This document shows positions 1-59,124 of a stretch of 64,000 nucleotides of DNA, piece after piece (the stretch's first letter is position 1; every line of letters begins with the position of its first letter). The notes beneath the pieces were generated by a model that worked only from the letters and a program-made list of their open reading frames with translations, made no database searches and had not been told where the DNA came from. The stretch is from Eledone cirrhosa (taxonomy: Eukaryota): positions 134,292,001 to 134,356,000 of the forward strand of contig OZ024742.1 of the NCBI GenBank assembly GCA_964016885.1, written 5' to 3'. The translations under genes and the position numbers were made by a program.

Positions 1-25
1 TTATACTCAGAACTGTGTTTATTAC

Positions 26-70
26 GCTCTGATGATCCCTACACAATGGTATGGATGAAGCATTGTAAGC
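26..70 (+). ncRNA. Minimal type-I hammerhead motif in a Penelope-like pseudo-LTR (GAAA changed to GAAG)
   Basis: gct-CTGATGA-tcc...gga-t-GAAG-cattg-TA-agc followed by AATAAA; region 1-120 is repeated at about 2119-2235. Confidence 0.65.
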
Positions 71-224
71 AAATAAAAACTGTTTGAGTATGTAAGCGTT
101 CTTCGGTTTCTTTTACATATAACGGCTTTGTTCTCGTACATTGAGCTAATACAATACCGTCAATATACACCACAGTGAGTTATGTTTGTGCACATGCACT
201 CCGTGCTATACGTACGTAAATAAG

Positions 225-279
<55 letters not shown>

Positions 280-280
<1 letters not shown>

Positions 281-2235
281 TTTTGTTTGATCTGTACTGT
301 TCGTCTAAAAACGGGCGACGTAATGTTGTCGATTATAAAGTATTACATTTTTGTTTTTTAAATTGCTATTTTGAAAATGAATAGACGTTGTCGATGATAC
401 TATCTATGCCTCTAACCGGACTTTCAGAAACACACTTCTTTCAGCCCAATTCAGCGTGAAACAAATGATTCTATTCATGTCATTTTGCCAGTTTTGTTCA
501 CTTCAATATATGGTCCAGACTAGAGAGCGACATTTAATCAGATCTCCAGTCTAGTAAAAGAAACCGCCTTCCAGTTTCGAATAATCATTCAAGATGAAGA
601 GTAGCAAGCCCAAAATATGGTTGCCGGATATTTGTGATTGTAGGCGACCAACTCTTTTGTTCCTGCTTCCGATACGATGATGTTACGGCATCACCCTGAG
701 CAGGTATGACTTTCTCTGTTCGAATACGAACGGGTTTAATTCAGGAGAAACATATCCCAAAATAATGGTTCCCATAAATAAAATAAATAAATATAAGAGG
801 TGAGGTGGAAGACTTTCTACATAGCAAGCTGTCAATGAAACATGTCTCCCATATAGAACGTACTGCAATGTTGAATGAAATGGAGATTCTTGAGGAACAA
901 TTACGGTATTAGAAAATAAGTAAACAACTTATTCATTAGTATACGAAAGTAAAATATAGCCGACAGAAATCTCCGGGAACCTAGAAATAATCAAGGAATC
1001 ATACAGACAAACTTTTACATTGGTTACCAAAGTATTTCCCCCCTCCAAACTATAGAAATTTCGCATATATTCGCTGGTTTCAAGTTCTCTAATCTGGGAA
1101 GTAGTCTAAGGATGTAAACTACAGCGATTATTTTCTGAACCATATCGAATTTGTCACCAAGGGAAAATTGGGGATACTTCAGGATTTTGTTACGGCAACA
1201 ACTACATTATGCTATATAGATGTTATCTTTTCTAATTCAACTGGCTAATACATAACGGAAGACAAGCACCATATCTCTCAAATATTCACTCATGAGATGC
1301 ATTAAATTTAAAAGAAGAAAATATTTATGAAAACAAAGGATGATGTAATAGAGTTAATAATTTCTATTCCGAAAGGCATATCCCGCATAATCATTATAGC
1401 ATCCATTTCATATGACAATATTCTCATCCATGTCATAATTGTCTTTGTTAGAACAACCCAGTCTAATCCAACATCCAAATATTTTGTAACTTACATTTAG
1501 TATTTATGTCTACATTTTAGTATTTGTTTGAAGGGCATATCAAAGTCCCTTACATGCAAGATACATTTCCCGCAGTTGGTTTCTACACCCGAAGGAAATT
1601 CATACAAAGATCTCTTTATTTCCACCGTTGGTTATTGCGATGAACTATTCAAATTTAGCTATTGATTTATAAGTTAAGTTGACACCCACTTTTAAAATCT
1701 TACTCTTTTGTTTATGATCAATAAAAAGGATTCATAACTAATCAATAACTAATCGTTTGATTAGGGACCAACGCTTAAATTCCTCTGGCTTTTTTATGTG
1801 CTTAAAACTCTTTCTTTTTCTGTTTTCACATATTTCCTTTTAACATTTAAAAAAAACTTGTTTACCTTGTATTTACTTTTTATCTCTTTATATTATCTTC
1901 CTTTTACTTTTTTATTATGTTTTAAACATTGTTTGTATGTTTTGCTTTTGTGTGCCATCAATTGTATTTGCATCGTGTGAGATCTGCTTGTGCCCTAGCA
2001 TTTAGCTGTGGTGGTTAACAACACCAACATGTACTCTCTCCTCATTCGCCATCTCCGGTCTCCCTATCTTTACCGTCTTTGAATTCCAATCGTTCGTGTG
2101 ACTAAGCTTGGTAGAGCTTATACTCAGCACTATGTTTATTAAGCTCTGATAAAACCTACCCAACGGTATGGATGAAACATTGTAAGCAAATAAAAACTGC
2201 TTGAGTATGTAAGCGTTCTTTGTTTTCCTTTACAT
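280..2235 (+). mobile_element. Probable heavily decayed Penelope-like element between two HHR-bearing direct repeats
   Basis: Direct repeats 1-120 and 2119-2235, each with an HHR core; weak PLE RT-thumb-like remnant (HTDKLLHW) near 1000-1030; no intact ORF. Confidence 0.4.
2143..2187 (+). ncRNA. Second pLTR hammerhead copy (CTGATGA changed to CTGATAA)
   Basis: gct-CTGATAA-aacctacc caac ggtatggat-GAAA-cattg-TA-agc-aaataaa. Confidence 0.6.
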
Positions 2236-2354: not shown

Positions 2355-2725
2355 CATATATATATGTGTGTGTGTGTGTATGTGTGCATATATATATATA
2401 TATATTCGTGTTTCCGTGTATGTGTGTATATATATATATATATTTAAACGGAAAAAAAATGAAACGAGATTTCATTTCCCACTCTTGGTGCGGCGGTTAC
2501 TTAAATATAAGTATGTACACGTACAGACATATATGTATACAGACGTGAAGTAGTATGTATATATATATATATATATATTCATACATGCACACATATATAT
2601 ATATGTACGTATGGATTCACCGAACATTTATTATAATGCTCGGTGAGTTTGTAAACAAACAACCCGTATTAAGCCGTAGTGTCCAGCAACCATCGTTGCT
2701 CGTTTGTTCAACACTGACAAAGGAA

Positions 2726-2766
2726 CACTGTACTAGTTTCAAGCTTATTAGCTATCATCGGCAACG
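2726..2766 (-). ncRNA. Hammerhead copy of the 430-nt unit (CCGATGA variant)
   Basis: Reverse complement: cgttg-CCGATGA-t-agct aata agct-t-GAAA-ctag-TA-cagtg. Confidence 0.65.
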
Positions 2767-3153
2767 TATACCTTCATGCCAGATTGTTGAACGTATATAC
2801 TTACCTTATGCATATTAACGGCTGAGTAGCCCAGTTTTCATATCGAGTGGGTTAAACGGCCGGGTGCACCGAAAACGATAAACGGAAAAAATGAAACGAA
2901 ATTTCATTTCCCACTCTTACTACGGCTGTTACTTAAATATAAGTATGTACATGTACATACATATATGTATACAGACGTACAGTAGTATGTATATATATAT
3001 ATACATACATACACACACATATATATATATATGTACGTGTCGATTCACCGAACATTTATTATAATGCTCCGTGTGTTTGTAAACAAACATCCCGTATTAA
3101 GCCGTAGTTTTCAGCAACCATCGTGCTCTTTTGTTCACGCTGAAAGAAGGAAG

Positions 3154-3192
3154 GCTGTACTAGTTTCAAGCTTATTAGCTATCGTCAGCAAC
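3154..3192 (-). ncRNA. Intact minimal type-I hammerhead ribozyme (430-nt unit)
   Basis: Reverse complement: gttg-CTGACGA-t-agct aata agct-t-GAAA-c-ta-g-TA-cagc; palindromic CUAG stem III; GUA triplet. Confidence 0.85.
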
Positions 3193-3672
3193 GTATACCT
3201 TCCTGCTAGATTGTTGAACGTATATACTTACCTGATGCATATTAACGGCTGAGTAGCCCAATTTGCATATTGAGTGGGTTAATCGGCCGGGTGCACCGAT
3301 AACGATAGACAGAAAAAATGAAACGAAATTTCATTTCCCACTCTTAGTTGGGCTGTTACTTAAATATAAGTATGTACACGTACATACATATATCTATACA
3401 TACGTACATATATATATATGTGTGCATGTATGTATATATATATATATATACATACTACTGTACGTCTGTATACATATATGTATGTACGTGTACATACTAA
3501 TATTTAAGTAACAGTCGTAGTAAGAGTGGGAAATGAAATTTCGTTTTATTTTTTCCGTTTATCGTTTTCGGTGCACCCGGCCGATTAACCCACTCGATAT
3601 GCAAATTGGGCTACTCATCCGTTAATTTGCATAAGATAAGTATATACGTTCAACAATCTGGCAGGAAGGTAT

Positions 3673-3715
3673 ACGTTGCTGACGATAGCTTATAAGCTTG
3701 AAACTAATACAGCGT
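3673..3715 (+). ncRNA. Hammerhead copy in the inverted arm (stem III G changed to A)
   Basis: acgttg-CTGACGA-t-agct tata agct-t-GAAA-ctaa-TA-cagcgt. Confidence 0.65.
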
Positions 3716-4053
3716 TCCTTTGTCAGTGTTGAACAAACGAGCAACGATGGTTGCTGGACACTACGGCTTAATACGGGATGTTTGTTTACAAACACATCGA
3801 GCATTATAATAAATGTTCGGTGAATCCATACGTACATATATATATATGTGTGCATGTATGTATATATATATACATACTACTGTACTTCTGTATATATATA
3901 TATATATATATAAATACATACTACTGTACGTCTGTATACATATATGTTTGTACGTGTACATACTTATATAGGTATATTTATATATATATATATATATATA
4001 CACATATATATATATATACATACACATATATATACATACATATACATACACAC

Positions 4054-9073: not shown

Positions 9074-9197
9074 TAAGCAGTTCCACATACACGATTTCCG
9101 AGAACAATTTGTTTCACCTCAGACGGAACATCCACACCCATCCCATGGACTGGATACTCTACTACTGCGGATATAACCCACCAGTTTTCTACCAATA

Positions 9198-10092
9198 TCT
9201 ATATATATAAAACTGAGGATGTCTGTGTGTGTGTGAGTTTGAATACCTAAAACTCGAGAACCACCCAATCGACTGTTTTCCAACTTTACACATGTAATAC
9301 TTATGTTTCAGGTAGTGTTCTGAGCAAAATAAAATCATATGTCCAACAGCCCTACAGACCGCATTAGGCGATTTAGCGATCTCTCTCTATAATTCTTATT
9401 CTTTCTCTTTTTACATAGATACATACATATAACGTCGCGCCCTTATAATATCTGTCTGTATGTCTGCCTGTCTGCATTACGTCACCTCCCTGGGGATGTC
9501 TGTGTGTGTGTCTGAGTTTGAATCCCTAAAACACTCGATGTACACAACCAATTTTTTTCAAACTATACATGTGTATTACTTATATTTCAGGGAGTGATAT
9601 GCACCTAAAAGATTCAACTGTTTGATCACCTAGGGCCCCCAATAGGTGAAAAACTGGGTTTTTTCAGGAATTTTTCTTTTTTTTTTCAGGCGTTACGTCA
9701 GACCGATTTCCTTGAAATTGTAACTACGTACTAGTCAGTCTCTTCTTCATACAAGGAGCAAATAAAATCCAACTTTTTTATGGCCTAGGGCCCGCATTAG
9801 GTGAACAACTTCATTTTTTCATTTTTCAGCTTTTAAGGGCTGTTTGGAGGCGTTACCTCTACTAGATTTTCCCAAAAAGGTAAGGCATATTATGCACATA
9901 AAAAAAATCATTTTCTTGATCCCCTAAGGGCCGCATTAGGTGAAAACCTGCATTTTTCCAGCTTCATCGAGGAAAATCTTTGGTTTATTTTCTTTACATA
10001 TTGTCCAGGCATGCAGTTTTTCCACGATTAGGTCTGTTGGCAGCTCGCGTTCCAAAATACCTTATCCCGTGCAACGCCGGGTACCACTGCTA

Positions 10093-10093
<1 letters not shown>
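9198..10093 (+). mobile_element. Non-autonomous Helitron
   Basis: A|TCTATATATATAAAA start; subterminal GC hairpin cccg-tgcaacgc-cggg; CTAG|T end; internal subrepeats gggccc/gcattaggtgaa. Confidence 0.8.
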
Positions 10094-11690: not shown

Positions 11691-13451
11691 TTTGAAACGG
11701 AGAACTAGTGGCGCTTCGAATAACATGTATTATACATATTACAATCCTTTCTCTGGCGACCAGCTCGAGACACGATCAATGCAATGTTCGAATCTGACGC
11801 TAAAGTCGCACCGGCGGCCTTCACTCGGCAACTTAAGTCCTGTTGTTGTCCTTCGATGAGTGGTCAAGAATTGTATACGTCATCGGTATTTTTGGATACT
11901 CCTGGCAGTCGTATATTTGGTTCCTTTCGTTTGCCACCTGTAAATCAAAGTTGTTTCTTATATCGGAATTACTACTGTAGCAGGTAATGGGTTGTATGAT
12001 TGAACTGCTCGTGCCGTGTCGCAGCATTCCCGGCCTGTAGGCGCCCACACCCATGTCTATATTTCGCGCAGGCATGATACATATGGGTACTTATGTACCC
12101 ACAATCATCACATACACACCCGTAACTGTATTATATATAACAATCACAGTAAATATTGAATGTTCAGCGAATACTTAGAAATAATCTTTTTAAAAATGGA
12201 AACACATTTAAACAAACCTTTCTGAAAAACACGCCCTCAAAATACCTTAAAAAACACACATTTAAAAGAAAAAGGCCCTATAAAAAGAACGGTTTTAAAA
12301 GAATGCTAGAAAAAACTATTTCAAAGGTATTTTTGATAAATATACAAATATCTACACACACACACTGTACAGGAAAGCATATATACATAAGACACGGCAC
12401 ATATATACAGATGTAAACATGGACAATCTACAAATACATATGCATACACCTACACAGACATGTTCATACAAATACATACACTCAGACCAGCATACCCATG
12501 CATGTATGAATATATGCGTGCACACACATACATGCAGCCGCGCATGGGCAAGCGCATGGGCATGCACATGAGCATGCTTATACATCTAAAAAAAGCACAT
12601 GCTTGATGAATACCTACACATCCATACAGACACGCAACTGTGCACATGGCGCATAAAATATCATATGAGACAACATTCTTGAGGCTTGGACTCAACCCAT
12701 TCATAGAGCCATATAAGCCTGAAAGTGCATGCAGAATATGCAGGAATGCAATAGCTACGTAGTAGGCTTGTGCTAATCACATATAGCATGGGGCAGGCAC
12801 ATATATAAATGCGTGTACGTACTTAAAATAAAATAAGATAAAATGCAATACTGGAAAAAAGGAATGTATACATAAAAGAGTTGCAAAGGAGGTATCTGTT
12901 CACGCCACCCGGATATTATTGGGATTTGCATAAAGTTGCATCAAATACTTGAAGACTGTCATGCATAGGGTTATATAAAATACTCGACTGACGATCCAAG
13001 GGACTGGGTACGAAACTGCACACCAACCATGCAAATGAGACAGGTTTCATGACGGGCGGACACAAGGGACCGTGTGTGTATATATACACAAACAACTTAT
13101 ATATATTGTGAATTTTTAGAATATCCTATTCATAATAGTATATATGAAATGTATATGGAATGGATGTATATATAGAATATATCGGGAATGTATAGAATAT
13201 GTGTTTCATAACAGTATATATGAAATGTACATGGAATGGATGCATAAATGGAATATACCAACGGCTTGTGTTTTAGGCATGCATATAGCAACTGTAGGCA
13301 AAGTTAGAATTAATTGCAACATTAACCTTAAGTCCAACATAAAGTTGCAAATTAAACATCAAGACTCGAAAAAAAAAACCATCAAGAATCGAAAATTAAA
13401 AATAAAAGATTAAAAATATTAAATAAAAAAATTCAAATTCAAATTGAAACC

Positions 13452-14180
13452 CACATATGGTTCAATGCACCATACTCGAAGCATGTATGGACTGACGTGC
13501 CAGGCCTCTTCTTCAGGGTATTGGACCAGTGTTTCCCGGCATCCTAGAGGTACCACAAAATATTCAACCGCCACACCGGGAAGTTCTCTTTTTCCACGGC
13601 ACCCAACCTGGCCGACTACATGGCCAAGGCCAACGGAATGAAAATGAGGACACCTCACCGACAAACTTTACAGGTCTCAGCCACGAAGGGGCGGCCGAGG
13701 AGAGCGCATGGAGAAGTGGCTAGTAGTTCTGGAGATGTGTCTGAGAGCGGAGCTGTGACCGTGGAGGACGCAACATTTGACAAAAGAGATCAGCAAGTGG
13801 TGAACACCGAGTCCTCCACTATGCCGGAACACCACATGGGGACCAGGGAGAACCCAAATAAGACGTCAGGCTCACATAAAGGGAATTACAAAAATGATGC
13901 ACGGACATGTAACTGCTGTGTGGGTTAGCATTGCCCTCTGCAGGGAATGTACCTGACAAAGGGCATTGTCTACAGGCGTGTGGTTAACACACAAAATGGT
14001 AGGCACACCTACATCGGGGCAACATCCACGACTTTTAAATCGAGGATGTACAACCACAAGAACTCGTTCAAAGACAGGAACAACAGACACTCCACCGGAC
14101 TGGCGGACCTAATATGGGGACTGAAGGACAGTGGCACGGAGTTTGACCTCAGCTGGAGTATTGTACGGCGCGCGAATGCG
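13452..14180 (+). mobile_element. Penelope-like element (Neptune-type) fragment: linker plus GIY-YIG endonuclease, with stops
   Basis: HIWFNAPYSK, FFRVLDQCFP, KIFNRHTGKFSFST, CNC..CPLQG..GIVYRRVV..TYIGATSTTFKSRMYNHKNSF..IWGLKD. Confidence 0.9.
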
Positions 14181-14186
14181 TGTTTT

Positions 14187-15058
14187 TTAAATGCTGGGTA
14201 AATATTCTATGGCTGTTGTTCGCGAATAGGTGGCTATCGTTTATTTATCTATTATTTCTTCACAGCTGCCTTTTAATCTTATATCCTGTTTTAATTGTTT
14301 TTTTGTGTGGTTAATTATGCTAATTGGGAGAGCAAATTGAGTATATATCTTATGAAATGATTCTAAGGACATAATTTATAGTATATTGTTCTGATTATTT
14401 AATTTATTAATTCATCATTGAGCCACATCGTGAATGGTTACCAAAACCATATCTATGACTTTGTCTAGTTTGTGTATATGTAAATCTTTATATTTGATAA
14501 TCTCCCATGAGTTGAGATGCAATTTAGGCAATATTAGACTGCGCTTTCTAGCAACCAGCCTACTAGCCGTAAGGTACCAGTCACATTATTTCTGACTTGA
14601 CCACTGCCACGTCACAGTTCTTAGCCATTTTAATCCGTTTCTGGCGGGGATCATTTAAGAAAAATATTTGTCCAAGTGAGTTTGTTTCCTGATGAGTTCG
14701 AAGTTCGAGTATTTATCTTTGATAGGATATTTCCGAAAGCGAACGAAACCCTAAAATGTAGGCACGTAATCCTGGTATGTGTATATGCAATTTTTCTTCT
14801 AACTTTAATTTTATACCTAATTGTGTATGGTTGACGATATATTTAATCGATATCCACGAGCTATTGAAATGCTGGGTAAATATTCTATGGCTGTTGAACG
14901 CGAATAGGTGGGTATCGTTTATTTATCTATTACTTCTTCACATGTGCCTTTTTAATCTTACAGCCTGGTTTAATCGGTATTTTGTGTGGTTAATTAAGCT
15001 AATTGGGAGAGGAAATGAGTATATATCTTATCAAATGATTCTAAGGACATAATGTATA

Positions 15059-15060
<2 letters not shown>
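14187..15060 (+). repeat. About 680-bp unit with about 200-bp terminal redundancy and an HHR-like core (pLTR or retrozyme-like)
   Basis: Segment atgctgggtaaatattc... at 14191 and 14869; CTGATGA-gttcg...cgaac-GAAAC at 14689-14749. Confidence 0.65.
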
Positions 15061-15096
<36 letters not shown>

Positions 15097-15249
15097 ATAA
15101 ATGCTCTGAAATAGCGATATATATGTGAGTATAGACATAGAATATTCGAAAATATTCTGTATGTTTATAATAAACATTTTGAAGACCTAATCGCTATAGA
15201 ATAGAATACGTCACGTATTACAATTAGATTCTCGATAAAAGCAAGGGAA

Positions 15250-15292
15250 GTAATCTACGCGTTTCATTCTTGTTAGAATTCATCAGGACCAC
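15250..15292 (-). ncRNA. Minimal type-I hammerhead; identical copies start at 15560, 15870, 16180, 16490, 16800 and 17110
   Basis: Reverse complement: gtggtc-CTGATGA-attct aaca agaat-GAAA-c-gc-g-TA-gattac. Confidence 0.92.
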
Positions 15293-17441
15293 ATATCCAG
15301 TGCTTTTATCGAGAATGACACAGCTAGAGACTTATAGAATACTTAGCTGTGTACTGGAACTGGTTTGAAAGAGCGGTTGCCGGTCCGGCAGAAATTAGAA
15401 ATTGGAATAAATGCTCTGAAATAGCGATATATATGTGAGTATAGACATAGAATATTCGAAAATATTCTGTATGTTTATAATAAACATTTTGAAGACCTAA
15501 TCGCTATAGAATAGAATACGTCACGTATTACAATTAGATTCTCGATAAAAGCAAGGGAAGTAATCTACGCGTTTCATTCTTGTTAGAATTCATCAGGACC
15601 ACATATCCAGTGCTTTTATCGAGAATGACACAGCTAGAGACTTATAGAATACTTAGCTGTGTACTGGAACTGGTTTGAAAGAGCGGTTGCCGGTCCGGCA
15701 GAAATTAGAAATTGGAATAAATGCTCTGAAATAGCGATATATATGTGAGTATAGACATAGAATATTCGAAAATATTCTGTATGTTTATAATAAACATTTT
15801 GAAGACCTAATCGCTATAGAATAGAATACGTCACGTATTACAATTAGATTCTCGATAAAAGCAAGGGAAGTAATCTACGCGTTTCATTCTTGTTAGAATT
15901 CATCAGGACCACATATCCAGTGCTTTTATCGAGAATGACACAGCTAGAGACTTATAGAATACTTAGCTGTGTACTGGAACTGGTTTGAAAGAGCGGTTGC
16001 CGGTCCGGCAGAAATTAGAAATTGGAATAAATGCTCTGAAATAGCGATATATATGTGAGTATAGACATAGAATATTCGAAAATATTCTGTATGTTTATAA
16101 TAAACATTTTGAAGACCTAATCGCTATAGAATAGAATACGTCACGTATTACAATTAGATTCTCGATAAAAGCAAGGGAAGTAATCTACGCGTTTCATTCT
16201 TGTTAGAATTCATCAGGACCACATATCCAGTGCTTTTATCGAGAATGACACAGCTAGAGACTTATAGAATACTTAGCTGTGTACTGGAACTGGTTTGAAA
16301 GAGCGGTTGCCGGTCCGGCAGAAATTAGAAATTGGAATAAATGCTCTGAAATAGCGATATATATGTGAGTATAGACATAGAATATTCGAAAATATTCTGT
16401 ATGTTTATAATAAACATTTTGAAGACCTAATCGCTATAGAATAGAATACGTCACGTATTACAATTAGATTCTCGATAAAAGCAAGGGAAGTAATCTACGC
16501 GTTTCATTCTTGTTAGAATTCATCAGGACCACATATCCAGTGCTTTTATCGAGAATGACACAGCTAGAGACTTATAGAATACTTAGCTGTGTACTGGAAC
16601 TGGTTTGAAAGAGCGGTTGCCGGTCCGGCAGAAATTAGAAATTGGAATAAATGCTCTGAAATAGCGATATATATGTGAGTATAGACATAGAATATTCGAA
16701 AATATTCTGTATGTTTATAATAAACATTTTGAAGACCTAATCGCTATAGAATAGAATACGTCACGTATTACAATTAGATTCTCGATAAAAGCAAGGGAAG
16801 TAATCTACGCGTTTCATTCTTGTTAGAATTCATCAGGACCACATATCCAGTGCTTTTATCGAGAATGACACAGCTAGAGACTTATAGAATACTTAGCTGT
16901 GTACTGGAACTGGTTTGAAAGAGCGGTTGCCGGTCCGGCAGAAATTAGAAATTGGAATAAATGCTCTGAAATAGCGATATATATGTGAGTATAGACATAG
17001 AATATTCGAAAATATTCTGTATGTTTATAATAAACATTTTGAAGACCTAATCGCTATAGAATAGAATACGTCACGTATTACAATTAGATTCTCGATAAAA
17101 GCAAGGGAAGTAATCTACGCGTTTCATTCTTGTTAGAATTCATCAGGACCACATATCCAGTGCTTTTATCGAGAATGACACAGCTAGAGACTTATAGAAT
17201 ACTTAATACGTGACGTATTCTATTCTATAGCGATTAGGTCTTCAAAATGTTTATTATAAACATACAGAATATTTTCGAATATTCTATGTCTATACTCACA
17301 TATATATCGCTATTTCAGAGCATTTATTCCAATTTCTAATTTCTGCCGGACCGGCAACCGCTCTTTCAAACCAGTTCCAGTACACAGCTAAGTATTCTAT
17401 AAGTCTCTAGCTGTGTCATTCTCGATAAAAGCACTGGATAT

Positions 17442-17484
17442 GTGGTCCTGATGAATTCTAACAAGAATGAAACGCGTAGATTAC
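17442..17484 (+). ncRNA. Minimal type-I hammerhead in the inverted arm; second copy at 17752-17794
   Basis: gtggtc-CTGATGA-attct aaca agaat-GAAA-cgcg-TA-gattac; predicted cleavage after A17478 and A17788. Confidence 0.92.
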
Positions 17485-18138
17485 TTCCCTTGCTTTTATC
17501 GAGAATCTAATTGTAATACGTGACGTATTCTATTCTATAGCGATTAGGTCTTCAAAATGTTTATTATAAACATACAGAATATTTTCGAATATTCTATGTC
17601 TATACTCACATATATATCGCTATTTCAGAGCATTTATTCCAATTTCTAATTTCTGCCGGACCGGCAACCGCTCTTTCAAACCAGTTCCAGTACACAGCTA
17701 AGTATTCTATAAGTCTCTAGCTGTGTCATTCTCGATAAAAGCACTGGATATGTGGTCCTGATGAATTCTAACAAGAATGAAACGCGTAGATTACTTCCCT
17801 TGCTTTTATCGAGAATCTAATTGTAATACGTGACGTATTCTATTCTATAGCGATTAGGTCTTCAAAATGTTTATTATAAACATACAGAATATTTTCGAAT
17901 ATTCTATGTCTATACTCACATATATATATATATATATATAAAGTACAGTGAATTTTTTGAAATTTAATTTGAAACTTTTTTCTTATTTGCTAAACCTGGA
18001 TTTTAGTCTTCAAATTTATTATTATTACTATATATATATATATATATATATAGTAATAATAATAAATTTGAAGACTAAAATCCAAAGAGGGCCCGATAAG
18101 GATAAATATATATCAAATATATAAGAACCGTAGAGCAA

Positions 18139-18275
18139 ATATTTATTAAAATAACAGATTAAAGTTTAAGCAATGCATCGTTGCTTTCACCCATAACGGG
18201 ATCTTCTGAAACTCCAAAGATCACGTTAAGGGTGAAAGCAGCAATTCTTTGCTTAAACTTTAATCTGTTATTTTA

Positions 18276-18283
<8 letters not shown>
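18139..18283. repeat. 145-bp fold-back element with degenerate hammerheads on its arms
   Basis: 35-bp perfect inverted arms; minus strand 18164-18212 reads gttt-CAGAAGA-tccc gttat gggt-GAAA-gcaa..ttgc-TT-aaac. Confidence 0.65.
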
Positions 18284-18323
<40 letters not shown>

Positions 18324-18327
<4 letters not shown>

Positions 18328-18662
18328 AGCTAAATATACTATACATATTTATGTATACATCACTATTTCAGAGTAGCAATTCTAAAACCTAATTTTTGCT
18401 GAATCGGCAATCTCTCTCCGTATATTCAGCTCCAGATTATTATTGGAGTTCTATTAGAATGCTCTTATAATTTTCGGCGGAAGCAGGGGAGTGTGTGTCT
18501 CTGATGAACGTCAACCTGCGTGAAACAGACTGTCAGCCTCTCTCCTATCTTTCGCTGAAAATAAATAAGTGACATAGTCACTACTTTAAAACTGATAGCC
18601 TTTGGTGTTCTAAATGATTCTAATTAAACATACGGTATATTGCCAAATATACTATACACGCA

Positions 18663-18666
<4 letters not shown>
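18324..18666 (+). repeat. Single about 313-nt retrozyme-like monomer with terminal redundancy and an HHR
   Basis: aaatatactatac at 18332 and 18645; HHR core at 18501-18534; flanked by (TA)n. Confidence 0.75.
18486..18546 (+). ncRNA. Type-I hammerhead ribozyme (GUC triplet)
   Basis: ct-CTGATGA-acg tcaacctg cgt-GAAA-cagactg-TC-ag, with distal ggggag/ctctcc extending stem I. Confidence 0.75.
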
Positions 18667-18709
<43 letters not shown>

Positions 18710-18833
18710 CAAAGGAATTGAGGTAAGGAACCAGATGGACCATAACGCACCAGAGTACTCAATACTTAGGGTAGTAGATTCCAGAAATAGCCGTCGAAAC
18801 GGCTTGAGCTCTGCCGTCGGGGTCATACTTTTT

Positions 18834-18888
<55 letters not shown>

Positions 18889-26598: not shown

Positions 26599-26601
<3 letters not shown>

Positions 26602-28226
26602 TCATCATCATTCGTCGATTACTGTCGAGATGATGGATCTCACTCTCATGCCCCAGAATTCCCTGTCCCCCATCGCTGCCCCCAGGTCCTGTCTACTGAT
26701 TCCCGTATCCCTAGAGATAACGTCAGGGAATGACAGCTTCCTACTCCTAGTCAGGCCGGAGTCAGGGTGCCAGAGCAAGAGAGCGGATATGATTTCATTG
26801 CTGGCACGGTGACAGTGGCCAGCAAATTGAGCTTTCCGGGATTTTAGAAGTGCAGAGGCTCGAGGGAGTTTGCCATAGATTTTAGACAAGGTGGGATGTC
26901 GTTTCCAGGATAGGTTTTTGCACTCTCATTAAGAGGCGGGTATATGTGCCATCCAATCTTCTCTCAAGTTGTTATGTTAGTGACCAAGTTTCGGATCCAT
27001 AAAGTAATATGGGTTTAATGGTTGCTTGGAATATTTCCCGTTTTAGCTTGTTGGTAAGTTGAGATGTCCATATGGCGTGCATGTCATTGCACGCTGGCCA
27101 TGCCATACCCTTCCTGGTTAGAAAATCTTTTTTGGAGGAGGAGATATATGAGCCAAGATACTTGTAATCTTCCACCTGCTTAAGGGTGGTACCATTAAGG
27201 GTTCTGATGGGGTAGTTTGGGCTGTTTGCGCATCTGTTCACATACTCAGTCTTGGATTCTTTGAGGTACAATCCAACACAGTTGGACGCTTGCTCTAATT
27301 ACTTCAAAAGACTCTCAGCATTTTCCAGTGACCGACTGATCAATGTGATGTCGTCAGCAAAGTCGGTGTCGGTCAAGTATTATGCTGGGTAGCGTGAGCT
27401 TCTCCTAGGCTGTAGTTGGTATCCCCTATCCTGAATCCTATCCACAGACATGTGCAAAAGATAATCCACAACAATGATAAATAGATACGGAGTAAGGGTA
27501 TCGCCCTGTAAAATTCCAGCGAGGATTGAGAAAGGTGGTGTTTTCCCATCTGGGGTCAGGACAGTTGATTTGGTATCTGTATACATTACACGTATGGCCG
27601 CGATGATTTTATCAGGAATCCTATAGATGTTGTAGAATTTCAAACATCTCCGACCTGTCAACTGAGTCGAAGGCTTTTGAAAAATCAACAAAGATGAGTG
27701 CAAGGTCTAGATTGCGGTTTTGGGACTCCTCTATAAGTCGGCGAAGGCAGAGAATCTGGCTAAGTGTTGATCTATCTCTCCTAAATCCATTCTGGTTGTT
27801 ACGAAGGATTGGCTCAAGAAATGGGATTAAGCGGTTAAGAAGAAGCTTGTTGTATATTTTTGCAGCAATTGCCATGAGACAAAATCCTCTATAGTTGGTG
27901 GCTAAAGAAAGATCTCCTTTTGGGGGCATAGGGATAATGTGAACTGCATGCCAGACGCTAGGTGGTTTATTGGTCTCGAAAGTATGGTTACATAAGTTGA
28001 GCAAAAGGATGTGGAAATGCTCATCCTTCCAAATCAGGGTAGGTATATTATCCGGCCCAAAAGCTTTTGAGGCTTTGAGCTGTTTGATGGCTTCTTTGAG
28101 CTCAGGCATGGTGAAAGGAGAGGTGTTGATTCCTAAAGGCTCTGAAACCTGCCCGGATGGCAGTTGATAGTTATCAGGGAGTCTGGCCTTTTTCTCTAGA
28201 AGGTTTTTAAAATGAACAGACCAATT

Positions 28227-28230
<4 letters not shown>
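26599..28230 (-). mobile_element. RTE-clade LINE, 5'-truncated and frameshifted
   Basis: GPDNIP, NYRG, QNGFRR, FVDFSKAFDSV, GILQGDTL, YKYLGS and LLYGSETW; (TGA)n tail. Confidence 0.9.
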
Positions 28231-28293: not shown

Positions 28294-28349
<56 letters not shown>

Positions 28350-28422
28350 CATTATGAAGAGAGAAGAAACATTTAGATATAATTAGTAATAAAATGTATC
28401 ATACCTAAACTGCTCCTAGATT

Positions 28423-28510
28423 CCTCGACTACGTAGTTTCGTGGCATAAACAAAAACAATACATCATAAAGATATAGAGTCTTTGCGAGGTCTGCCGACT
28501 TATCAAGAGG
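28423..28510 (-). ncRNA. Hammerhead with U3-A8 core variant
   Basis: Reverse complement of the motif at 29101-29188. Confidence 0.75.
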
Positions 28511-29100
28511 ATACCTCGTTTTACTAGCTTCAAGGACGCGTCTACATGACGTGAGAAAGAATCCCAAAAGGCGGAGGGGGAGATAATCACGCGATATAAC
28601 GGTCGAGAAACAGAGCTAAGCCTCTTATAACCCCGAAGAAAATACCACGGAGGCGGAGGGGGTATTTATATCGAAGCCGTATAAGAGGCGGTGAAGGAGG
28701 CGAGAAGTATGAGTAATGGCAGCTTTCCAGCAGTCACCACACTTCAAAGATTACTCGACCAGAGGGAGTTATGAACAATATATTTAGAAACACACAGATA
28801 CATGCGGACACACACATATACATGAATGCATCCACACCCAACGTGAGTTAATGGTGCCAACCTTACCGATGTTGCTCAATGAATGACTGGGACAGACCAA
28901 TCCGGTTGAATTAGACTGAACCAGTATCAGAGTTAAAAATACATTATGAAGAGAGAAGAAACATTTAGATATAATCGGGGTTATAAGAGGCTTAGCTCTG
29001 TTTCTCGACCGTTACATCGCGTGACTATCTCCCCCTCCGCCTTTTGGGATTCTTTCTCACGTCATGTAGACGCGTTCTTGAAGCTAGTAAAACGAGATAC

Positions 29101-29188
29101 CCTCTTGATAAGTCGGCAGACCTCGCAAAGACTCTATATCTTTATGATGTATTGTTTTTGTTTATGCCACGAAACTACGTAGTCGAGG
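29101..29188 (+). ncRNA. Hammerhead with U3-A8 core variant and long stem II
   Basis: cctc-TTGATAA-gtcggca...tgccac-GAAA-ctacgtag-TC-gagg; predicted cleavage after C29184. Confidence 0.78.
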
Positions 29189-29417
29189 AATCTAGGAGCA
29201 GTTTAAGTATGATACATTTTATTACTAATTATATCTAAATGTTTCTTCTCTCTTCATAATGTATTTTTAACTCTGATACTGGTTCAGTCTAATTCAACCG
29301 GATTGATCTGTCCCAGTCATTCATTGAGCAACATCGGTAAGGTTGGCACCATTAACTCACGGTTGGGTGTGGATGCATTCATGTATATGTGTGTGTCCGC
29401 ATGTATCTGTGTGTTTC

Positions 29418-29502
<85 letters not shown>

Positions 29503-36010: not shown

Positions 36011-36032
36011 TATTATTATTATTATTATTATT

Positions 36033-39000
36033 GAATGCTATAGTTGACGGAGGCTCGGCTCTGTAAGGTATTGTAAATTTTGAACACTATAACAATTGTA
36101 AATTGTTTAAAACTTTAACGAACTTGTAGGCAAAAACACCCTCCTCCTCGTGAGAGGGGTCTTTCTGCCCGTTATTTGGCCCTTCGGGGTTAAATAACTG
36201 CTTATTGGGGTTTTGTACCCAATATTTATTTTAAACAAAAAAAAAAAAACAACATGGCTACGAAAAAGAAATTTCATAGGTAACTCCCACTCATTCCGTC
36301 TTCTTCTTCCTCAATCATCACTACAGCAGAGAGAGGATTGTCCCCCCCCCCTTCTTTAAATGTGTCTCTCTCCCTCCCTTCTCTTTCGCAAGCGACGAAA
36401 GAAAAGAAAAGTCTCGTGCAAAGCGTGCACGGTTTCTCCACGACGACGACGACAGCGACGAAACAGGTGTGCGGGAAATACGAAAACCCAGTTCATTCGT
36501 CTGACGTCAGGAATAATAGCAGTAGCAGCCGTAATAACAACAGCAACAGTGACAATGAAAACAACAGTAGCAGCCGCAACAGCATCACCAGCAGCATAAA
36601 CAACAACAGCATTAGCAACAGCAACACCAACAACAACCACAGCAACAGCGGCGGAGGCAGTAGTCGTAGTACCTGCAGCAACAACAAAAGTAACAGCAGC
36701 TCTGACGACAACAACAACAACAGCAGCAAAGAAAAACCAATCTCATTTGCAGGTATTGCGAAAAACTTGGAAACAATCCTCATAACAAATGAGGAATTAG
36801 AGGAAGCGAAGAAGATGGTGACAAAGACTGGACACCGAGCAATCTGCAAGGCAGCGGAAAAAAAAAAAAATTTTTTCGAAATCCAACAGCACTGTACGGT
36901 CACGTACCTTACAGTAAGTACAAAATCCCGTAGGGTGGAAAGAGCCACAGACGCTCAAATACAAAAAGCCTTGGGGTCTGTGTGGCAGCGGAAAACGCAC
37001 ATCACCCGAGGCAAAACATATGCCACCGTAGACGTACTTTTTGCCACACCCCAGGAGGCAAAGACCCAATCCGGAGTGACCCTAAGGAGCGAGGAAATGG
37101 TTTGGTGCCCTCCTACTGCTGGCAAAAAATAGTGAGGGTCAAACTGACCCACGTCCCCCCCGGGATGGTCCTTTCTTGGCTGGCCGCGTCTGTCCTCGTC
37201 GGAATCGAGGACAAAACAACTGTACTGCAAGTACAGGAAAAAGTAAGAGGAGATTGGGTCGGCACCTCCATTGAGATGCTAATCCAAACCATCGAAGCTA
37301 TCCCGGATGTGATAGACTTCGATAACGGCACTCAACTGCCCATAAGTTTTGAGGGAAAACGCCCGAAATGCTTTCGCTGTGGATCGAAGACTCACCTCAG
37401 GGCCTTCTGCAACGAGAACACCCTGAGAAAGGAGAAAACCCCCTCCTTCCGAAACCGGCTCCACAGCTACCAGCAACAGGACAAGCGGTTACCAGGAACG
37501 ATAGGTCCGTGGCACCCATACCCACGCCACGGAAATCAAAAACAGCAGCAGCAGTGGAAATATTAACAACAACAACAGCAATATCAAATGCAGCTGCAAC
37601 AGAGACTCCAGTGCAAACATCACCAACAACAACAAGTGAAAGAGTGGAGCTGGTACCCCTCCCCGACCTCACAGAATCAGACATGGAGTGTGAGGTGGGA
37701 GAGGGATGGCAAAAGGTCGTAAGAAGGCACAAACGCAGAAGCAGCGCATCGTCGCCTTTGAAAAGGGAGGAAAGAAATAAGAAAAGGCTAAAGTCTACTG
37801 CAAAGAGACCCACAGCAGCAACACCACCAACACCATCACCATCCACACTAGCACCACCATCACCACCGGCGACAACCCCACCGCCAACAACACCTTCAAC
37901 ACCACCACCACAAGCACCAACATCGCAAACACAACAACAAAACACACACACCCAGCAAAAACGACAAGAAAATAGCAGAAATAGTTATGCGGGCGTTGAC
38001 GTGGGCCATCGTCAACAACAAGTGGTGGTTTGCTCTGAAAAGAGCGATTAGAATAGAATCCATTAGGTTTAATAAGGCTTTAGCAATAGAGAAAAATAGA
38101 GCAGAGGGAGAACTAGTTAGAAAATTAGACGAGGCGCTTAGCAAAGGCATCGCGACCGACGTGCTTGCGGCGAAACTGGTCCTTGACCAATTCTTCAATG
38201 CAAAGCACGAAGGTTGCGTTGTCAGGGCAAGGGGGGTGCGTGCTCTCAGACACGAGGGGACGAAAGCCGTTCAATGGGCCCGAGTGGCGGAGGCGCGTCG
38301 TGGCAACAAAGCCACGATCCGGTCTTTGGTGGACAACGACGGGCGCATGATACTCGATCCCGGGCAAATGTATGAAGCTTTTCAGCGACACTTCGCTCAG
38401 CTGTTCGGGGGCAGCGGTGGGCCGGGTCGAGGGATGGACTTTAGTGTCTACCTCGACGGATTGCCGCGGCTCTCGGCCACTGAGGCGAAGTGTTGCGAAA
38501 AGCCGATAACTGCCGCTGAAGTAAGGGAGGCATTGACTGGCTGCACAAGGGGTAAATCGCCTGGTTTGGATGGTCTGCCCTATGATCTTTACGTACAGAT
38601 GCCAGACTTGTTCAGAGGCCTCTTAGCGGACGTCTACTGCAACTGGCAACAGAACGCGAGAATTCCCAGTTCTGTGAGCCGAGGAGCGGTGGCACTGCTG
38701 AGAAAGGATCCTAACAAGGGGGATAACATAGATCATTTCCGGCCCATAACTCTGCTAAACACAGAGTTCAAGATTTTGGCCAAGGTGCTAGCAAAGAGGT
38801 TGGCGCTTGTCGTTGGTTGTCTGGTGGGAGAGGCGCAGTCATGCGCCATTCCCGACACATCCATCCACGACAACCTCCACCTCATGCGATACATCGTAGA
38901 GAGGGTAGCTAAGGAACCTGGCACGGGTGGGTCCTTGATCAATTTAGATCAGTCGAAAGCTTTCGATAGGGTCGACCATCGTTACCTAGCGGCAGTCCTG

Positions 39001-40857
39001 AGGGCGGCTTGCTTTGGGCCCGTCTTCAGAGGCTGGATCGCTGCCATGCACAGCGACATCTGCTCTGTGGTGAGAGTGAACGGTCACCTGTCGGAACCGT
39101 TCAACATCATGCGCTCGGTCCGCCAAGGATGTCCCCTCTCGTCCCTCTTGTACGTATTGACTCTCGGGCCATTACTGCACAAACTGGAGACGTTGAGGGG
39201 CGTCCTGCGCGAACTAGGATGCGGAAGATCCGTGTCAGCGTATGCGGACGATGTCACCGTAGTGGTGTCGAACGCCAAACACATCGAGGCGATCGGCACT
39301 ACAATAAGAGAATACGAAGCGGTGACAGGAGCAATGATCAACCAGGAAAAGTCAGTGGGCCTGCAGCTCGGCACCTGGAGAGGAAGGTCCATGCCGTCCA
39401 ACAGCGTCGTCGGACGCTGGACGGACGGACCGGTTAAATTGCTAGGGGTCTGGTTCGGTCCGGACCTCCAGACGGACAAAAACTGGGACGAGGTGACGAG
39501 CAGGGTGGCTTCTCTCACCCAGAAATGGGCGGAGAGGAAGCTATCCCTGAAAGATCGAGCGGAGGTTGCTAACGCGTACATCGCGTCTGTCATCTGCTAC
39601 CGCCTGACCGTCGTACCTTGTCCTAAGCCTCGCCTGACTGCGCTGGAGCGTTTGCTCTTTCGCTTTTCGTGGAAGGGACGCGCTCCGATGGTCAGGCGGT
39701 CCATCTGTTGTCAACACCCGCTACGTGGAGGGCTGGGCATGCCGTGGCTGATAATGCGCAGGCACGCGCTCAGGCTACGACATCTCCACCTCTTCCTCGA
39801 CGGTGATCAGGTGTGGTCGCCGTTTGATAGACACGTATTTCCCCAGCTCGTTTCCTTGACGGAGCTGCAGTCCTGGGTCAAGCGAAGACCGAGAGGGAGC
39901 GCCTAAAGACTGGAATGTCTTCAGGCGCTCACAGCCCTCGACCAATCGGGCAATGTGATGGGTGGAAACTCCACCTCGGCGTTCTATAGAGGATTAGTGG
40001 AGGGGAAGAGCGACGACGTACTTGGGGAAAATCTAGGCGTCGACGAAAATCAACTAGCCAATCTCTTCGGAAGAACTTTCGGGCCAGGGCCTATGGACAA
40101 CTTCCAGAAATCTCTGGCCTGGCAGTGCTACCGAGGAGCCTTACCAGTTCGGGATATACTCTACAGGCATGGAGGTGCCGTCAGCCGGGCATGTCCGAGA
40201 TGCGCGCAGGGCGACGAAACCGTCCTGCACGCACTCGTCCAGTGTCCGAAAATTGCTGACTTGTGGGTTTATGTCGAACACCTGCTGTCGCGTTTAGGAC
40301 GGATCCGGCTATCATCTGAGTCCATCGTGAGGATTGCCCCGCCCTCCTCCTTTAGCCGGGAAGGGCAGGCAGTTTTTATCTGTCTGGTGGCCATGGCGAA
40401 AGAGATAGTATGGTGGACACGTTTGAAAGGGCTGAAGACGAGCACTTACCTCTTCGGTGATGCTCTGATTGACTTTTTCAAATTTCATTTGAAAAGGAAA
40501 ATCAGAGTAGAGAGGGAAATGCTCTCTTCCCAGTATTTACGAGAAAGATGGGTGAGAGAAGCAAGAATGGCCCGAGTGAATGGGCCTACTCTGAGTATGT
40601 ATCTGTAAATTAAAGGTGGAAAACTGGGAGAGGGCACTTGCCTTGGTGGTCAGGGTCATTTTGGCTTTTTACTTGGCTTTCTCCACAAATGTCCCTCCGA
40701 AGTCTCCCCCCTATTGGGGAATTTTTCATTGTTATTTTTTGTCACACCCTCTGTTTTTTGTTTTTTACACGCAGAAATGCCCATTTGTACCGTCCTGTTT
40801 TGTCCTGCACTGTCCTTAATGTCTACTTTATGTAAACCCTTGTGGTTAATAAAGAAA

Positions 40858-40860
<3 letters not shown>
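36033..40860 (+). mobile_element. Tx1/L1-type LINE copy 1 (APE domain deleted at about 37980)
   Basis: ORF1 CCHC knuckle CFRCGSKTHLRAFC; RT motifs KSPGLDG, DQSKAFDRV, VRQGCPLS, AYADD; C-terminal CPRC..ETVLHALVQC. Confidence 0.92.

Positions 40861-40901
<41 letters not shown>

Positions 40902-45674: not shown

Positions 45675-45675
<1 letters not shown>
40902..45675 (+). mobile_element. Tx1/L1-type LINE copy 2 (deletion after YADD at about 45336)
   Basis: ORF1 at about 41121-43219; APE motifs SINARGL, ISET, VYAP, VGDWN, YLDRV, TDHK, YWKLN; RT up to AYADD. Confidence 0.93.
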
Positions 45676-45735
<60 letters not shown>

Positions 45736-45738
45736 TTT

Positions 45739-48357: not shown

Positions 48358-48438
48358 CATGCACTGGGTAATTGCTGGCCTTGTGCCAAAAGTAGAAACA
48401 TTTATTATTATTATTATTATTATTATTGTTATTGTTAT

Positions 48439-56088: not shown

Positions 56089-56170
56089 TATAATGCTTTG
56101 CTATCTGTTTTCTTGTGCTGATCTCAAACCCTGTCAATAATCACTACTCCTTCATTCTATTTAAGTAATT

Positions 56171-58582: not shown

Positions 58583-59124
58583 ATCATTGTAAACAATATT
58601 CGTTGTTGATATAAAGTTTATATCAACACGAATAACGTTTAATTTCAACAGAAAAGGTGATCAGTATCCGTGATAAACAAACAATATATGATGGAAAGAA
58701 GTCAAATGGTAACGAATTATATTATTAAGCATTAATTCGATCCCTGTATCTAGGCAAAATTTCAACCGACTTTGATCGCTTACGTTTACCTATATTATCA
58801 AATTTGCATTTGATGATTTAACGTTCTTCGCACATATTACGTTAGACAGAACTAAGTAAAGAGCAGCAGATATATTTCTGAAGATTACAAATGAAGAGAA
58901 ACAATTTGAGTTTCCTGCAACACACGTTTAGTTTGAAATTATTTCTAAGTAAAATAAACATTAGATATGTCAAATATGTACATTTTTCTTGGTGGACACA
59001 AACATGATTCATACATATACCTTATTACGTATACACATACTAAACATCTCCATGTTTGTACATTGTAAACGTTATTCGTGTTGATATAAACTTTATATCA
59101 ACAACGAATATTGTTTACAATGAT
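58583..59124. mobile_element. MITE-like segment with 59-bp perfect, self-palindromic inverted repeats
   Basis: 58583-58641 is the exact reverse complement of 59066-59124. Confidence 0.6.

What the first reader, a model, noticed from the sequence alone, without database searches (positions are those of the whole stretch)
17081..17330. Recurrent divergent tandem-plus-inverted architecture across unrelated HHR families
Seen: the 430-nt (junction about 3398), 310-nt (junction 17204/5, 2-nt TA overlap) and 592-nt (junction 28975) loci share a layout. The left arm has its HHR on the minus strand and the right arm on the plus strand, so 5' ends meet centrally and both 3' ends run into (TA)n. The mini element at 18139-18283 repeats this. 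Inference: both ends of a break in (TA)n prime reverse transcription on a circular or multimeric RNA (twin-priming-like), resembling the inverted pLTRs of Penelope insertions. The roughly 720-bp perfect arms could also form dsRNA or cruciforms.
Basis: partly seen in the sequence, partly recalled or inferred. Interest (0 to 1): 0.75.

Follow-up and report, generated by a model that had tools for sequence, protein, structure and literature searches.

The report
Ribozyme repeats inserted Penelope-style, head-to-head
Three unrelated short ribozyme-bearing repeats in an animal genome were inserted into TA microsatellites as back-to-back pairs, a layout already known for Penelope-like retrotransposons, which suggests that these non-coding repeats borrow the Penelope copying machinery.

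Summary
The layout is real at three loci (units of 427, 310 and 592 nt). In each, two arms of a type I hammerhead repeat meet at their 5' ends and both 3' ends run into (TA)n. The 'mini element' cannot be counted: it has no hammerhead core, so no polarity, and only one end touches (TA)n. The layout is not new. Partial tandems with a 5'-adjacent inverted copy, an optional 30-40-nt tail and (TA)n targets are the published structure of Penelope-like elements (PLEs), with head-to-head the commonest form. The units fit metazoan non-LTR retrozymes. A Hydra-clade PLE remnant lies about 900 nt from the 310 locus. Of 6 scorable hammerhead loci, 3 are inverted. Classical L1-type twin priming is not supported, because the arms do not abut on the template. 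The best model is that PLE protein primes both ends of a (TA)n break on circular or multimeric RNA; cDNA fold-back is the main rival. What it adds is an insertion footprint linking retrozymes to PLEs, which I did not find in print.

The parts
15091..17205 (-). Locus B left arm: 6.82 identical copies of a 310-nt non-coding unit with 7 type I hammerheads; 5' end at the junction (unit phase 221), 3' end at phase 163-165
17204..17927 (+). Locus B right arm: 2.34 identical units with 2 hammerheads (cores 17448 and 17758; predicted cuts after 17478 and 17788); starts at phase 36, ends at phase 131-139 in an 8-nt TA microhomology
17204..17205 (.). Head-to-head junction of B, 2-nt TA overlap
15091..15124 (-). 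26-34-nt extension at the 3' end of the left arm only, the size of the PLE 'tail'
   Evidence: PMC8557442 passages
15060..15092 (.). (TA)n flank left of B, shared with the 3' end of element G
17920..17940 (.). (TA)n flank right of B
2445..3408 (-). Locus A left arm: about 2.2 decayed copies of a 427-nt unit; hammerheads at 3188 (intact core) and about 2761 (core mutated)
3402..3970 (+). Locus A right arm: about 1.2 units, hammerhead at 3679 (one change next to the cut site); 3' end 58 nt upstream of the left arm's in unit phase
28346..28975 (-). Locus C left arm: 1.06 copies of a 592-nt unit; hammerhead with a U3:A8 core at 28506
28975..29426 (+). Locus C right arm: 0.76 unit, hammerhead at 29105; 3' end 160 nt downstream of the left arm's in unit phase; not contained in the left arm
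18323..18666 (+). Element D: about 1.1 unit, non-inverted, diverged relative of the 310 family between two (TA)n tracts; hammerhead at 18501; 3' end at the same TA tract as B right
13440..14198 (+). Broken Hydra-clade PLE ORF remnant (C-terminal part: CxCX5C linker, GIY-YIG without the two internal cysteines; two in-frame stops; stops short of the C-terminus)
14186..15064 (+). Element G: 678-nt period (201-nt terminal direct repeat), degenerate hammerhead at 14689, joined to the PLE remnant, 3' end in the (TA)n that also flanks B; no inverted arm
2118..2235 (+). Element E2: hammerhead stub (core 2146) ending in the TA-rich tract left of locus A; a sister copy E1 lies at 1-228; no inverted arm
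18139..18283 (.).

Best explanation
The three loci are insertions of non-autonomous hammerhead repeats (non-LTR retrozymes) made in trans by a Penelope-like element protein, plausibly of the (TA)n-targeting Hydra clade. (1) The repeat is transcribed and self-cleaved into monomers that circularise, or it persists as a multimer [inferred from family knowledge]. (2) The GIY-YIG endonuclease cuts both strands in (TA)n [target shown; enzyme inferred]. (3) Each 3'-OH primes reverse transcription internally on the RNA, often at an AU tract, and runs on past the ribozyme cut site around the circle or along the multimer, which gives arms of arbitrary phase and more than unit length [geometry shown; template inferred]. 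(4) The two cDNAs are joined at their 3' ends over 1-7 nt of overlap and filled in, which leaves 5' ends in the centre and 3' ends on the flanking (TA)n [product shown; step inferred]. When only one end is primed, a single-orientation insert results (D, E2, G). I put the family-level assignment (retrozyme units with a PLE-type insertion) at about 0.85; the confidence given here is for the full two-end mechanism.
For: The layout matches the published PLE structure: an inverted 5'-truncated copy next to the 5' end, a 30-40-bp tail at one end and (TA)n bias (PMC8557442); head-to-head is the most frequent (PMC3846280). Purified Anolis PLE protein cuts and extends both strands of AT-rich DNA, starts internally on the RNA at two adjacent sites that define the tail, and is predicted to be a dimer (PMC11167929). 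B has a 26-34-nt one-sided extension. D, 221 identities in 331 aligned positions, ends at the same site as B right. All 10 of 10 3' ends lie at (TA)n; TA microhomology at the 7 ends tested gives a combined P=0.008 on my null. In C the right arm is not a sub-interval of the left arm, nor the reverse. A Hydra-type PLE remnant lies in the window: E 6e-21 to a 713-aa protein that has DKT and CxCX5C; 2467 relatives at E<=0.001. The units are non-coding (longest stop-to-stop 59-88 aa, GC 35-42%) and fold better than shuffles as circles (z -4.0 to -8.3 for A-D). B versus D shows 6 double and 2 single compensatory changes in 16 pairs, none broken, with G-U pairs on the hammerhead strand. The short palindromic helix III and the U3:A8 core are both described for metazoan and PLE hammerheads (PMC4209133).
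Against: Only 1 of 3 loci has a tail-sized offset (B 26-34; A 58; C 160 the other way), and one such match among three has P=0.48 by chance. D sharing B's end has P about 0.07. In each inverted locus one end has 5-8 nt of TA microhomology and the other 1-2 nt, an asymmetry that fold-back also predicts. The right arm is contained in the left arm in A and B. No sequence similarity links units A-C to the PLE remnant or to G, and the remnant is dead, so the partner is not identified. An RTE-like LINE fragment also sits between (TA)n tracts at about 26600-28230, so the target is not PLE-specific. PLE hammerhead cleavage was not needed for insertion in vitro, so a circular template is not required. 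TSDs cannot be read in (TA)n. n is 3 loci, and there are no expression or read data.
Confidence: 0.58

Rival explanations
1. Same elements and same PLE machinery, but only one end is primed on RNA. The first cDNA (or an antisense template) folds back or switches template and copies itself, then leaves through an internal TA tract onto the other end of the (TA)n target. This is close to the self-priming model proposed for Adineta PLEs.
For: PMC3846280 proposes self-priming to explain head-to-head junctions with palindromes. The right arm lies within the left arm in A and B. The shorter arm is the one that ends in 5-8 nt of TA microhomology in all 3 loci. B's right arm starts at a natural 7-bp hairpin; 2.9% of phases do so. 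In A the right arm is closer to the distal left unit (private difference events 14, 8, 9), though not significantly (P=0.37).
Against: C needs an extra template jump, since its right arm runs 160 nt past the left arm's 3' end. The junctions are not palindromic: the loops are 123 nt (B) and 338 nt (C). Single-arm D also ends at the TA tract, so such ends can be primary starts.
Confidence: 0.22
2. Classical single-template twin priming by a LINE (RTE or L1-like) protein acting in trans.
For: It gives the same 5'-to-5' geometry (recalled). RT-bearing LINE ORFs are abundant in the window and one lies between (TA)n tracts beside C. PMC7229834 names LINEs or PLEs as candidate partners.
Against: The arms do not abut on the template in any of the 3 loci. 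The arms overlap by 291-724 nt. There is no poly(A) or LINE-type 3' tail. The hammerheads are of the PLE and retrozyme kind.
Confidence: 0.07
3. Simple tandem inserts were rearranged later at the DNA level (replication template switching or repair near fragile (TA)n), which created the inverted arm.
For: A perfect 88-nt palindrome centred on (AT)n at 17997-18084 suggests that fold-back events occur here. Junction overlaps are short.
Against: That palindrome has (AT)n in the centre, the opposite geometry. No flanking host DNA is duplicated in any locus. B has no mismatch over 2839 nt, which leaves little time for a second event. The same geometry occurs in three unrelated families.
Confidence: 0.08
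4. Assembly or read fold-back artefact.
For: B's arms and all 9 units are 100% identical. PLE tandem/inverted structures are known to trouble assemblies.
Against: Flanks beyond the outer (TA)n are not mirror images (local scores 17, 20, 16, no better than direct 19, 21, 17). The arms differ by about 1.8% in C and 5-11% in A. The arms start and end at different phases. The copy number in B could still be misassembled.
Confidence: 0.05

Closest known systems
EN+ Penelope-like elements, tandem/inverted insertion structure (PMC8557442 Fig. 2 legend; PMC3846280; PMC8969392)
   Same: Partial tandem plus a 5'-adjacent inverted 5'-truncated copy, head-to-head; one-sided tail in B; (TA)n target; type I hammerheads.
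   Different: The repeat unit is 310-592 nt and non-coding rather than an RT-EN element of about 3 kb. B has 6.8 + 2.3 units. The 3' offsets in A (58) and C (160) fall outside 30-40 nt.
Metazoan non-LTR retrozymes (PMC7229834; PMC7761336; bioRxiv 10.64898/2026.07.22.740005)
   Same: Short non-coding tandem repeats with one type I hammerhead per unit, GC below 50%, stable predicted circle, co-occurring with PLEs; unit sizes lie within the 51-972 bp range of the 2026 preprint.
   Different: The two primary papers describe direct tandems only: 'inverted', 'opposite' and 'orientation' have 0 hits in PMC7229834, and the single 'inverted' in the preprint is in a reference title. Circular RNA and cleavage are untested here.
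Hydra-clade PLEs (PMC8557442 section 11)
   Same: The remnant at 13440-14198 has the CxCX5C linker and lacks the cysteines inside GIY-YIG. The clade carries hammerheads and almost all its families insert in (TA)n.
   Different: The remnant is broken and shares no detectable sequence with units A-C. DKT and RWK lie outside the fragment.
Opposite-strand hammerhead pairs in Schistosoma mansoni (PMC4209133)
   Same: Dual hammerheads about 100-700 bp apart on opposite strands; U3:A8 core variant. Inner hammerhead pairs here are about 300-600 nt apart (17146/17448, 3188/3679, 28506/29105).
   Different: That paper gives one sentence with no orientation, junction or target analysis, and ascribes the motifs to truncated PLEs.
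L1 twin priming
   Same: 5'-to-5' junction with short microhomology; both target ends used as primers.
   Different: L1 segments abut on one RNA and do not form long inverted repeats; here they overlap by hundreds of bases and do not abut.

Membership tests
Non-LTR retrozyme | Short non-coding tandem unit, GC <50%, no LTR organisation | tested here: met
   427, 310 and 592 nt; GC 0.35-0.42; longest stop-to-stop 59-88 aa; none of 150 PLE-like proteins hits the units at E<=1e-3. PBS/PPT not searched.
Non-LTR retrozyme | Type I hammerhead in each unit | tested here: met
   B 9 of 9 and C 2 of 2 by my descriptor; A 1 of 3 intact, 2 decayed; B/D covariation. Rfam gathering score not reached.
Non-LTR retrozyme | [quoted passage not shown] | tested here: inconclusive
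   Met by B (7 and 2 consecutive). Not met by C (one per arm) or A (one intact); other genomic copies are not available.
Non-LTR retrozyme | Stable, self-paired monomer circle | tested here: met
   Circular MFE z -4.6 (A), -4.1 (B), -8.3 (C), -4.0 (D); G +1.4, not met. The reverse strand of B scores equally (-4.4), so energy alone gives no polarity.
Non-LTR retrozyme | Self-cleavage and accumulation as circular RNA | not testable with these tools
   No RNA data. In the 2026 preprint only 1 of 9 predicted elements cleaved in vitro.
PLE-type insertion | Inverted 5'-truncated copy adjacent to the 5' end (head-to-head) | tested here: met
   3 of 3 inverted loci; 3 of 6 scorable hammerhead loci.
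PLE-type insertion | Optional 30-40-bp tail at one 3' end | tested here: inconclusive
   B 26-34, A 58, C 160 in the other direction; chance of one match in three 0.48.
PLE-type insertion | (TA)n or AT-rich target | tested here: met
   10 of 10 3' ends within 23 nt of (TA)>=6; background 2.9% within 30 nt.
PLE-type insertion | Target-site duplication where readable | not testable with these tools
   Masked by microsatellite flanks, as also noted in PMC8557442; needs the empty allele.
Autonomous PLE | RT plus GIY-YIG ORF inside the element | tested here: not met
   Units A-C are non-coding; PLE protein hits fall only at 13.4-14.2 kb. The loci are not filed as autonomous PLEs.
Hydra-clade PLE (remnant at 13440-14198) | C-terminal GIY-YIG, CxCX5C linker, no CCHH cysteines | tested here: met
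   (Pfam GIY-YIG E 5e-4, 20.8 bits, below the 22.6 cut-off); no tree built.
Hydra-clade PLE (remnant at 13440-14198) | DKT and RWK motifs in the N-terminal part | not testable with these tools
   That region is absent from the remnant; its 713-aa relative P0014 has DKT but not RWK.
L1-type twin priming | Inverted and direct segments abut on a single template | tested here: not met
   Gaps modulo unit: 81/180 (B), 301/392 (C), 267/382 (A); criterion recalled.

The most novel reading that the evidence does not exclude
Locus B is a fresh record of one event in which a dimeric Hydra-clade PLE protein primed both ends of a (TA)n break on a 310-nt circular RNA and went round it 6.8 and 2.3 times. 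Retrozyme arrays would then carry the PLE insertion footprint, which would be direct genomic evidence that PLEs mobilise animal retrozymes through circular RNA. Because short units expose the phase of all four ends, genome-wide copies could decide the open question of how PLE inverted structures form (two-end priming or self-priming). Young loci would also be ready-made sources of dsRNA hundreds of base pairs long.
Probability: 0.4. Interest if true: 0.55.

Novelty: new member of a known kind. Interest (0 to 1): 0.34.

Why it matters
The architecture itself is textbook for Penelope-like elements. The value lies in where it is seen. The partner that mobilises animal non-LTR retrozymes has been argued from shared hammerheads and co-occurrence (PMC7229834) and from pLTR phylogeny (2026 preprint), whose authors say the mechanism remains to be elucidated. 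A head-to-head, (TA)n-targeted and sometimes tailed insertion of non-coding hammerhead arrays is an independent, mechanistic line of support. How PLEs form tandem/inverted structures is stated as unresolved in PMC8557442 and PMC3846280. Short units make the two models separable by simple counting of arm phases.

Tried and rejected
Rfam at gathering score: 0 matches. Rfam by E-value on bases 1-30000: mostly chance miRNA matches to TA-rich hairpins, and only a weak HH9 match on B. Mini element as a fourth example: rejected. Strict L1-type twin priming: rejected. Read fold-back chimera: rejected for A and C, unlikely for B. Heterogeneous multimer template in A: the column count looked significant (27/9/9, P=0.0007) but was inflated by one misaligned indel cluster and end gaps; counted as events (14/8/9) P=0.37, so nothing is concluded. 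Shared ancestry of A, B, C, E and G: none found, only B-D. G as the missing C-terminus of the PLE ORF: its three forward frames show no such sequence. The word-index protein search with the 88-aa GIY-YIG piece found nothing; the full HMMER scan did. The Atlas look-up gave no result. Host lineage: a LINE ORF search returned no informative names, so the host is unidentified; a passage search of an octopus repeat paper, prompted by a recalled resemblance, found no 'hammerhead' or 'retrozyme' and is not evidence about this window. No other copies of these families could be fetched, because no eukaryotic genome collection was available; genome contigs (bacteria and archaea) was not used, and viral and metagenome collections stayed unchecked.

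Full report
Setting. The window is AT-rich animal-type DNA with 31 merged (TA)>=6 arrays and several LINE-like ORFs. The host was not identified.

Observation. Locus B is as described. The left arm, 15091-17205 on the minus strand, holds 6.82 copies of a 310-nt unit; the right arm, 17204-17927 on the plus strand, holds 2.34 copies. Neither has a mismatch, and they overlap by TA. The longest perfect inverted match is 724 nt with a 123-nt spacer. Locus C has a 592-nt unit, arms 28346-28975 (minus) and 28975-29426 (plus), a 1-nt overlap, and 7 substitutions plus 1 indel between the arms. Locus A has a 427-nt unit, arms about 2445-3408 (minus) and 3402-about 3970 (plus), an overlap of up to 7 nt, and is decayed. 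The three units share no blastn similarity. Flanks beyond the outer (TA)n are not mirror images, which argues against fold-back read chimeras; B's copy number cannot be checked without reads.

Hammerheads. A type I descriptor finds 15 hits at score >=15, against a shuffle mean of 0.05 (40 shuffles): nine in B, one in A, two in C, one each in D and G, and one at 58878 that I take as chance. E1 and E2 score 12, where shuffles average 2.1, but they are homologous to each other with the core conserved. Rfam has no match at gathering score and a weak HH9 match on B only. A and B have the short palindromic helix III, and C the U3:A8 core, both described in PMC4209133. D (18323-18666) aligns to the B unit along its length (score 200 against 65+-8 in 200 shuffles; 221 identities, 110 mismatches, 21 gap positions). 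Across 16 base pairs the two show 6 double and 2 single compensatory changes and none broken, with G-U pairs on the hammerhead strand. This supports both the RNA structure and the polarity on which 'divergent' depends.

How general it is. Of 7 hammerhead loci, 6 can be scored and 3 are inverted, all head-to-head (P=0.125 alone). D, E2 and G have one arm. All 10 of 10 3' ends lie within 23 nt of (TA)n, against 2.9% background within 30 nt. The junctions of B and C lie 716 and 446 nt from any array; A's junction falls in the unit's own TA-rich part. The mini element has no hammerhead core, no relatives, and only one end at (TA)n, so I exclude it.

A candidate partner. At 13440-14198 lies the broken C-terminal part of a PLE ORF. 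It has a weak Pfam GIY-YIG match, 2467 relatives at E<=0.001, and E 6e-21 to a 713-aa protein with a DKT motif. The CxCX5C linker and the lack of cysteines inside GIY-YIG match the Hydra clade, of which almost all families insert in (TA)n (PMC8557442). None of the 150 proteins hits anywhere else in the window. The remnant is dead and shows no sequence link to A-C, so it shows that the clade has been present, not that it did the work.

Mechanism. The 3' ends of the two arms differ in unit phase by 26-34 nt (B), 58 (A) and 160 in the other direction (C). B fits the PLE tail, but one fit in three has P=0.48. TA microhomology at the 3' ends is 8, 6 and 5 nt on the right arms, 2, 1 and 2 on the left arms, and 5 for G; combined P=0.008 on my null. 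Strict L1-type twin priming (recalled) predicts abutting segments; the observed gaps are 81/180, 301/392 and 267/382, so it fails. Fold-back predicts that one arm is contained in the other: true for A and B, false for C. Two-end priming needs no extra step for C and agrees with in vitro data: a purified Anolis PLE protein cuts and extends both strands, starts internally at two adjacent RNA sites and is predicted to be a dimer, although hammerhead cleavage was dispensable (PMC11167929). I put two-end priming by PLE machinery at 0.58, fold-back at 0.22, LINE twin priming at 0.07, later DNA rearrangement at 0.08 and artefact at 0.05. Circle versus linear multimer cannot be told apart here; zero variation across 9 units of B fits a circle, but also a homogeneous array or recent expansion. 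Read-through transcription of B would give a 724-bp hairpin (inferred); a cruciform is unlikely with a 123-nt spacer (recalled).

Comparison with what is known. PMC8557442 states that PLE insertions are partial tandems, often with an inverted 5'-truncated copy adjacent at the 5' end and a 30-40-bp tail, and that microsatellite targets hide TSDs; it also reports non-autonomous Chlamys elements with multicopy head-to-tail insertions. PMC3846280 calls head-to-head the most frequent arrangement and proposes self-priming. PMC4209133 notes hammerhead pairs 100-700 bp apart on opposite strands. PMC7229834 defines non-LTR retrozymes and names PLEs as the strong candidate partner. The 2026 preprint supports this by co-occurrence and pLTR phylogeny. 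I did not find the inverted footprint described for retrozyme arrays in searches or in term searches of the two primary papers. The library lacks most subscription papers, including the 2005 and 2006 PLE papers cited by these authors.

What I saw of each paper. The 2026 bioRxiv preprint: parts 1-3 of 5 (abstract to end of discussion) and a term search; its supplements are closed and may bear on novelty. PMC8557442: passages and section 11. PMC11167929: parts 1-2 of 4 (main text). PMC4209133: passages and section 5. PMC7229834: passages and sections 13 and 17. PMC3846280: passages and section 11. PMC7761336, PMC8969392 and PMC13282606: passages. No supplements were read; those of PMC7229834 (Fig. 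S9, integration model) and PMC8557442 may also bear on novelty. L1 twin priming and cruciform rules: recalled.

Verdict. A real and well-spotted pattern at three loci, explained as new retrozyme families inserted with the known PLE structure. It has modest added value as mechanistic support for the retrozyme-PLE link and as a tractable test of how PLE inversions arise. Interest 0.34.

Noticed in passing
window 13440-15064: A Hydra-clade PLE ORF remnant breaks off inside the endonuclease domain and runs straight into a 678-nt-period hammerhead repeat (G) that ends in the (TA)n flanking locus B; whether G is its pLTR or a separate element is unresolved.
   Followed up: partly
window 18323-18666: Non-inverted, about 67%-identical relative of the 310 family, with compensatory base changes and the same 3' end site as B's right arm.
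   Followed up: yes
window 1-228 and 2118-2235: A further hammerhead family (E) in two plus-strand copies, both ending at TA tracts about 110 nt apart in unit phase; the 1.8 kb between them has no PLE protein hit.
   Followed up: partly
window 17997-18084: Perfect 88-nt palindrome centred on (AT)n, the opposite geometry to the finding; probably a local DNA fold-back.
   Followed up: partly
window 17920-18880: Five (TA)n tracts within 1 kb separate short unrelated segments (17941-18030, 18053-18283, D, 18709-18835), which looks like a hotspot of nested insertions.
   Followed up: partly
window 28346-29426: All 7 substitutions between the arms of locus C are transitions (seen in the alignments); they could reflect two different RNA templates, editing or ordinary decay.
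   Followed up: no
window 17205-17219: B's right arm begins at a natural 7-bp hairpin of the unit; 2.9% of phases would do so. It recalls the palindromes reported at 5' ends of Adineta pLTRs.
   Followed up: partly
window 26600-28230 and 56165-57008: An RT-bearing LINE fragment (RTE-like by recall) lies between two (TA)n tracts directly left of locus C; a 94%-identical copy lies inverted at 56.2-57.0 kb.
   Followed up: partly
window 58583-59124: 59-bp perfect inverted arms, themselves palindromic, about 420 nt apart and without (TA)n flanks; MITE-like.
   Followed up: no
window 9076-10093: A 1-kb segment between two (TA)n tracts with internal direct subrepeats (60-107 nt, 76-79%) and no hammerhead hit.
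   Followed up: no
window 36011-48360: Several near-identical (82-96%) copies of an L1/Tx1-like element (label recalled) flanked by (ATT)n tracts, in tandem-like arrangement.
   Followed up: no
window 12988: Isolated hammerhead-like core upstream of the PLE remnant in the first loose scan; it did not pass the structured scans.
   Followed up: partly
window 60737-61294: ORF fragment resembling a Tc1/mariner transposase C-terminus (recalled, untested).
   Followed up: no
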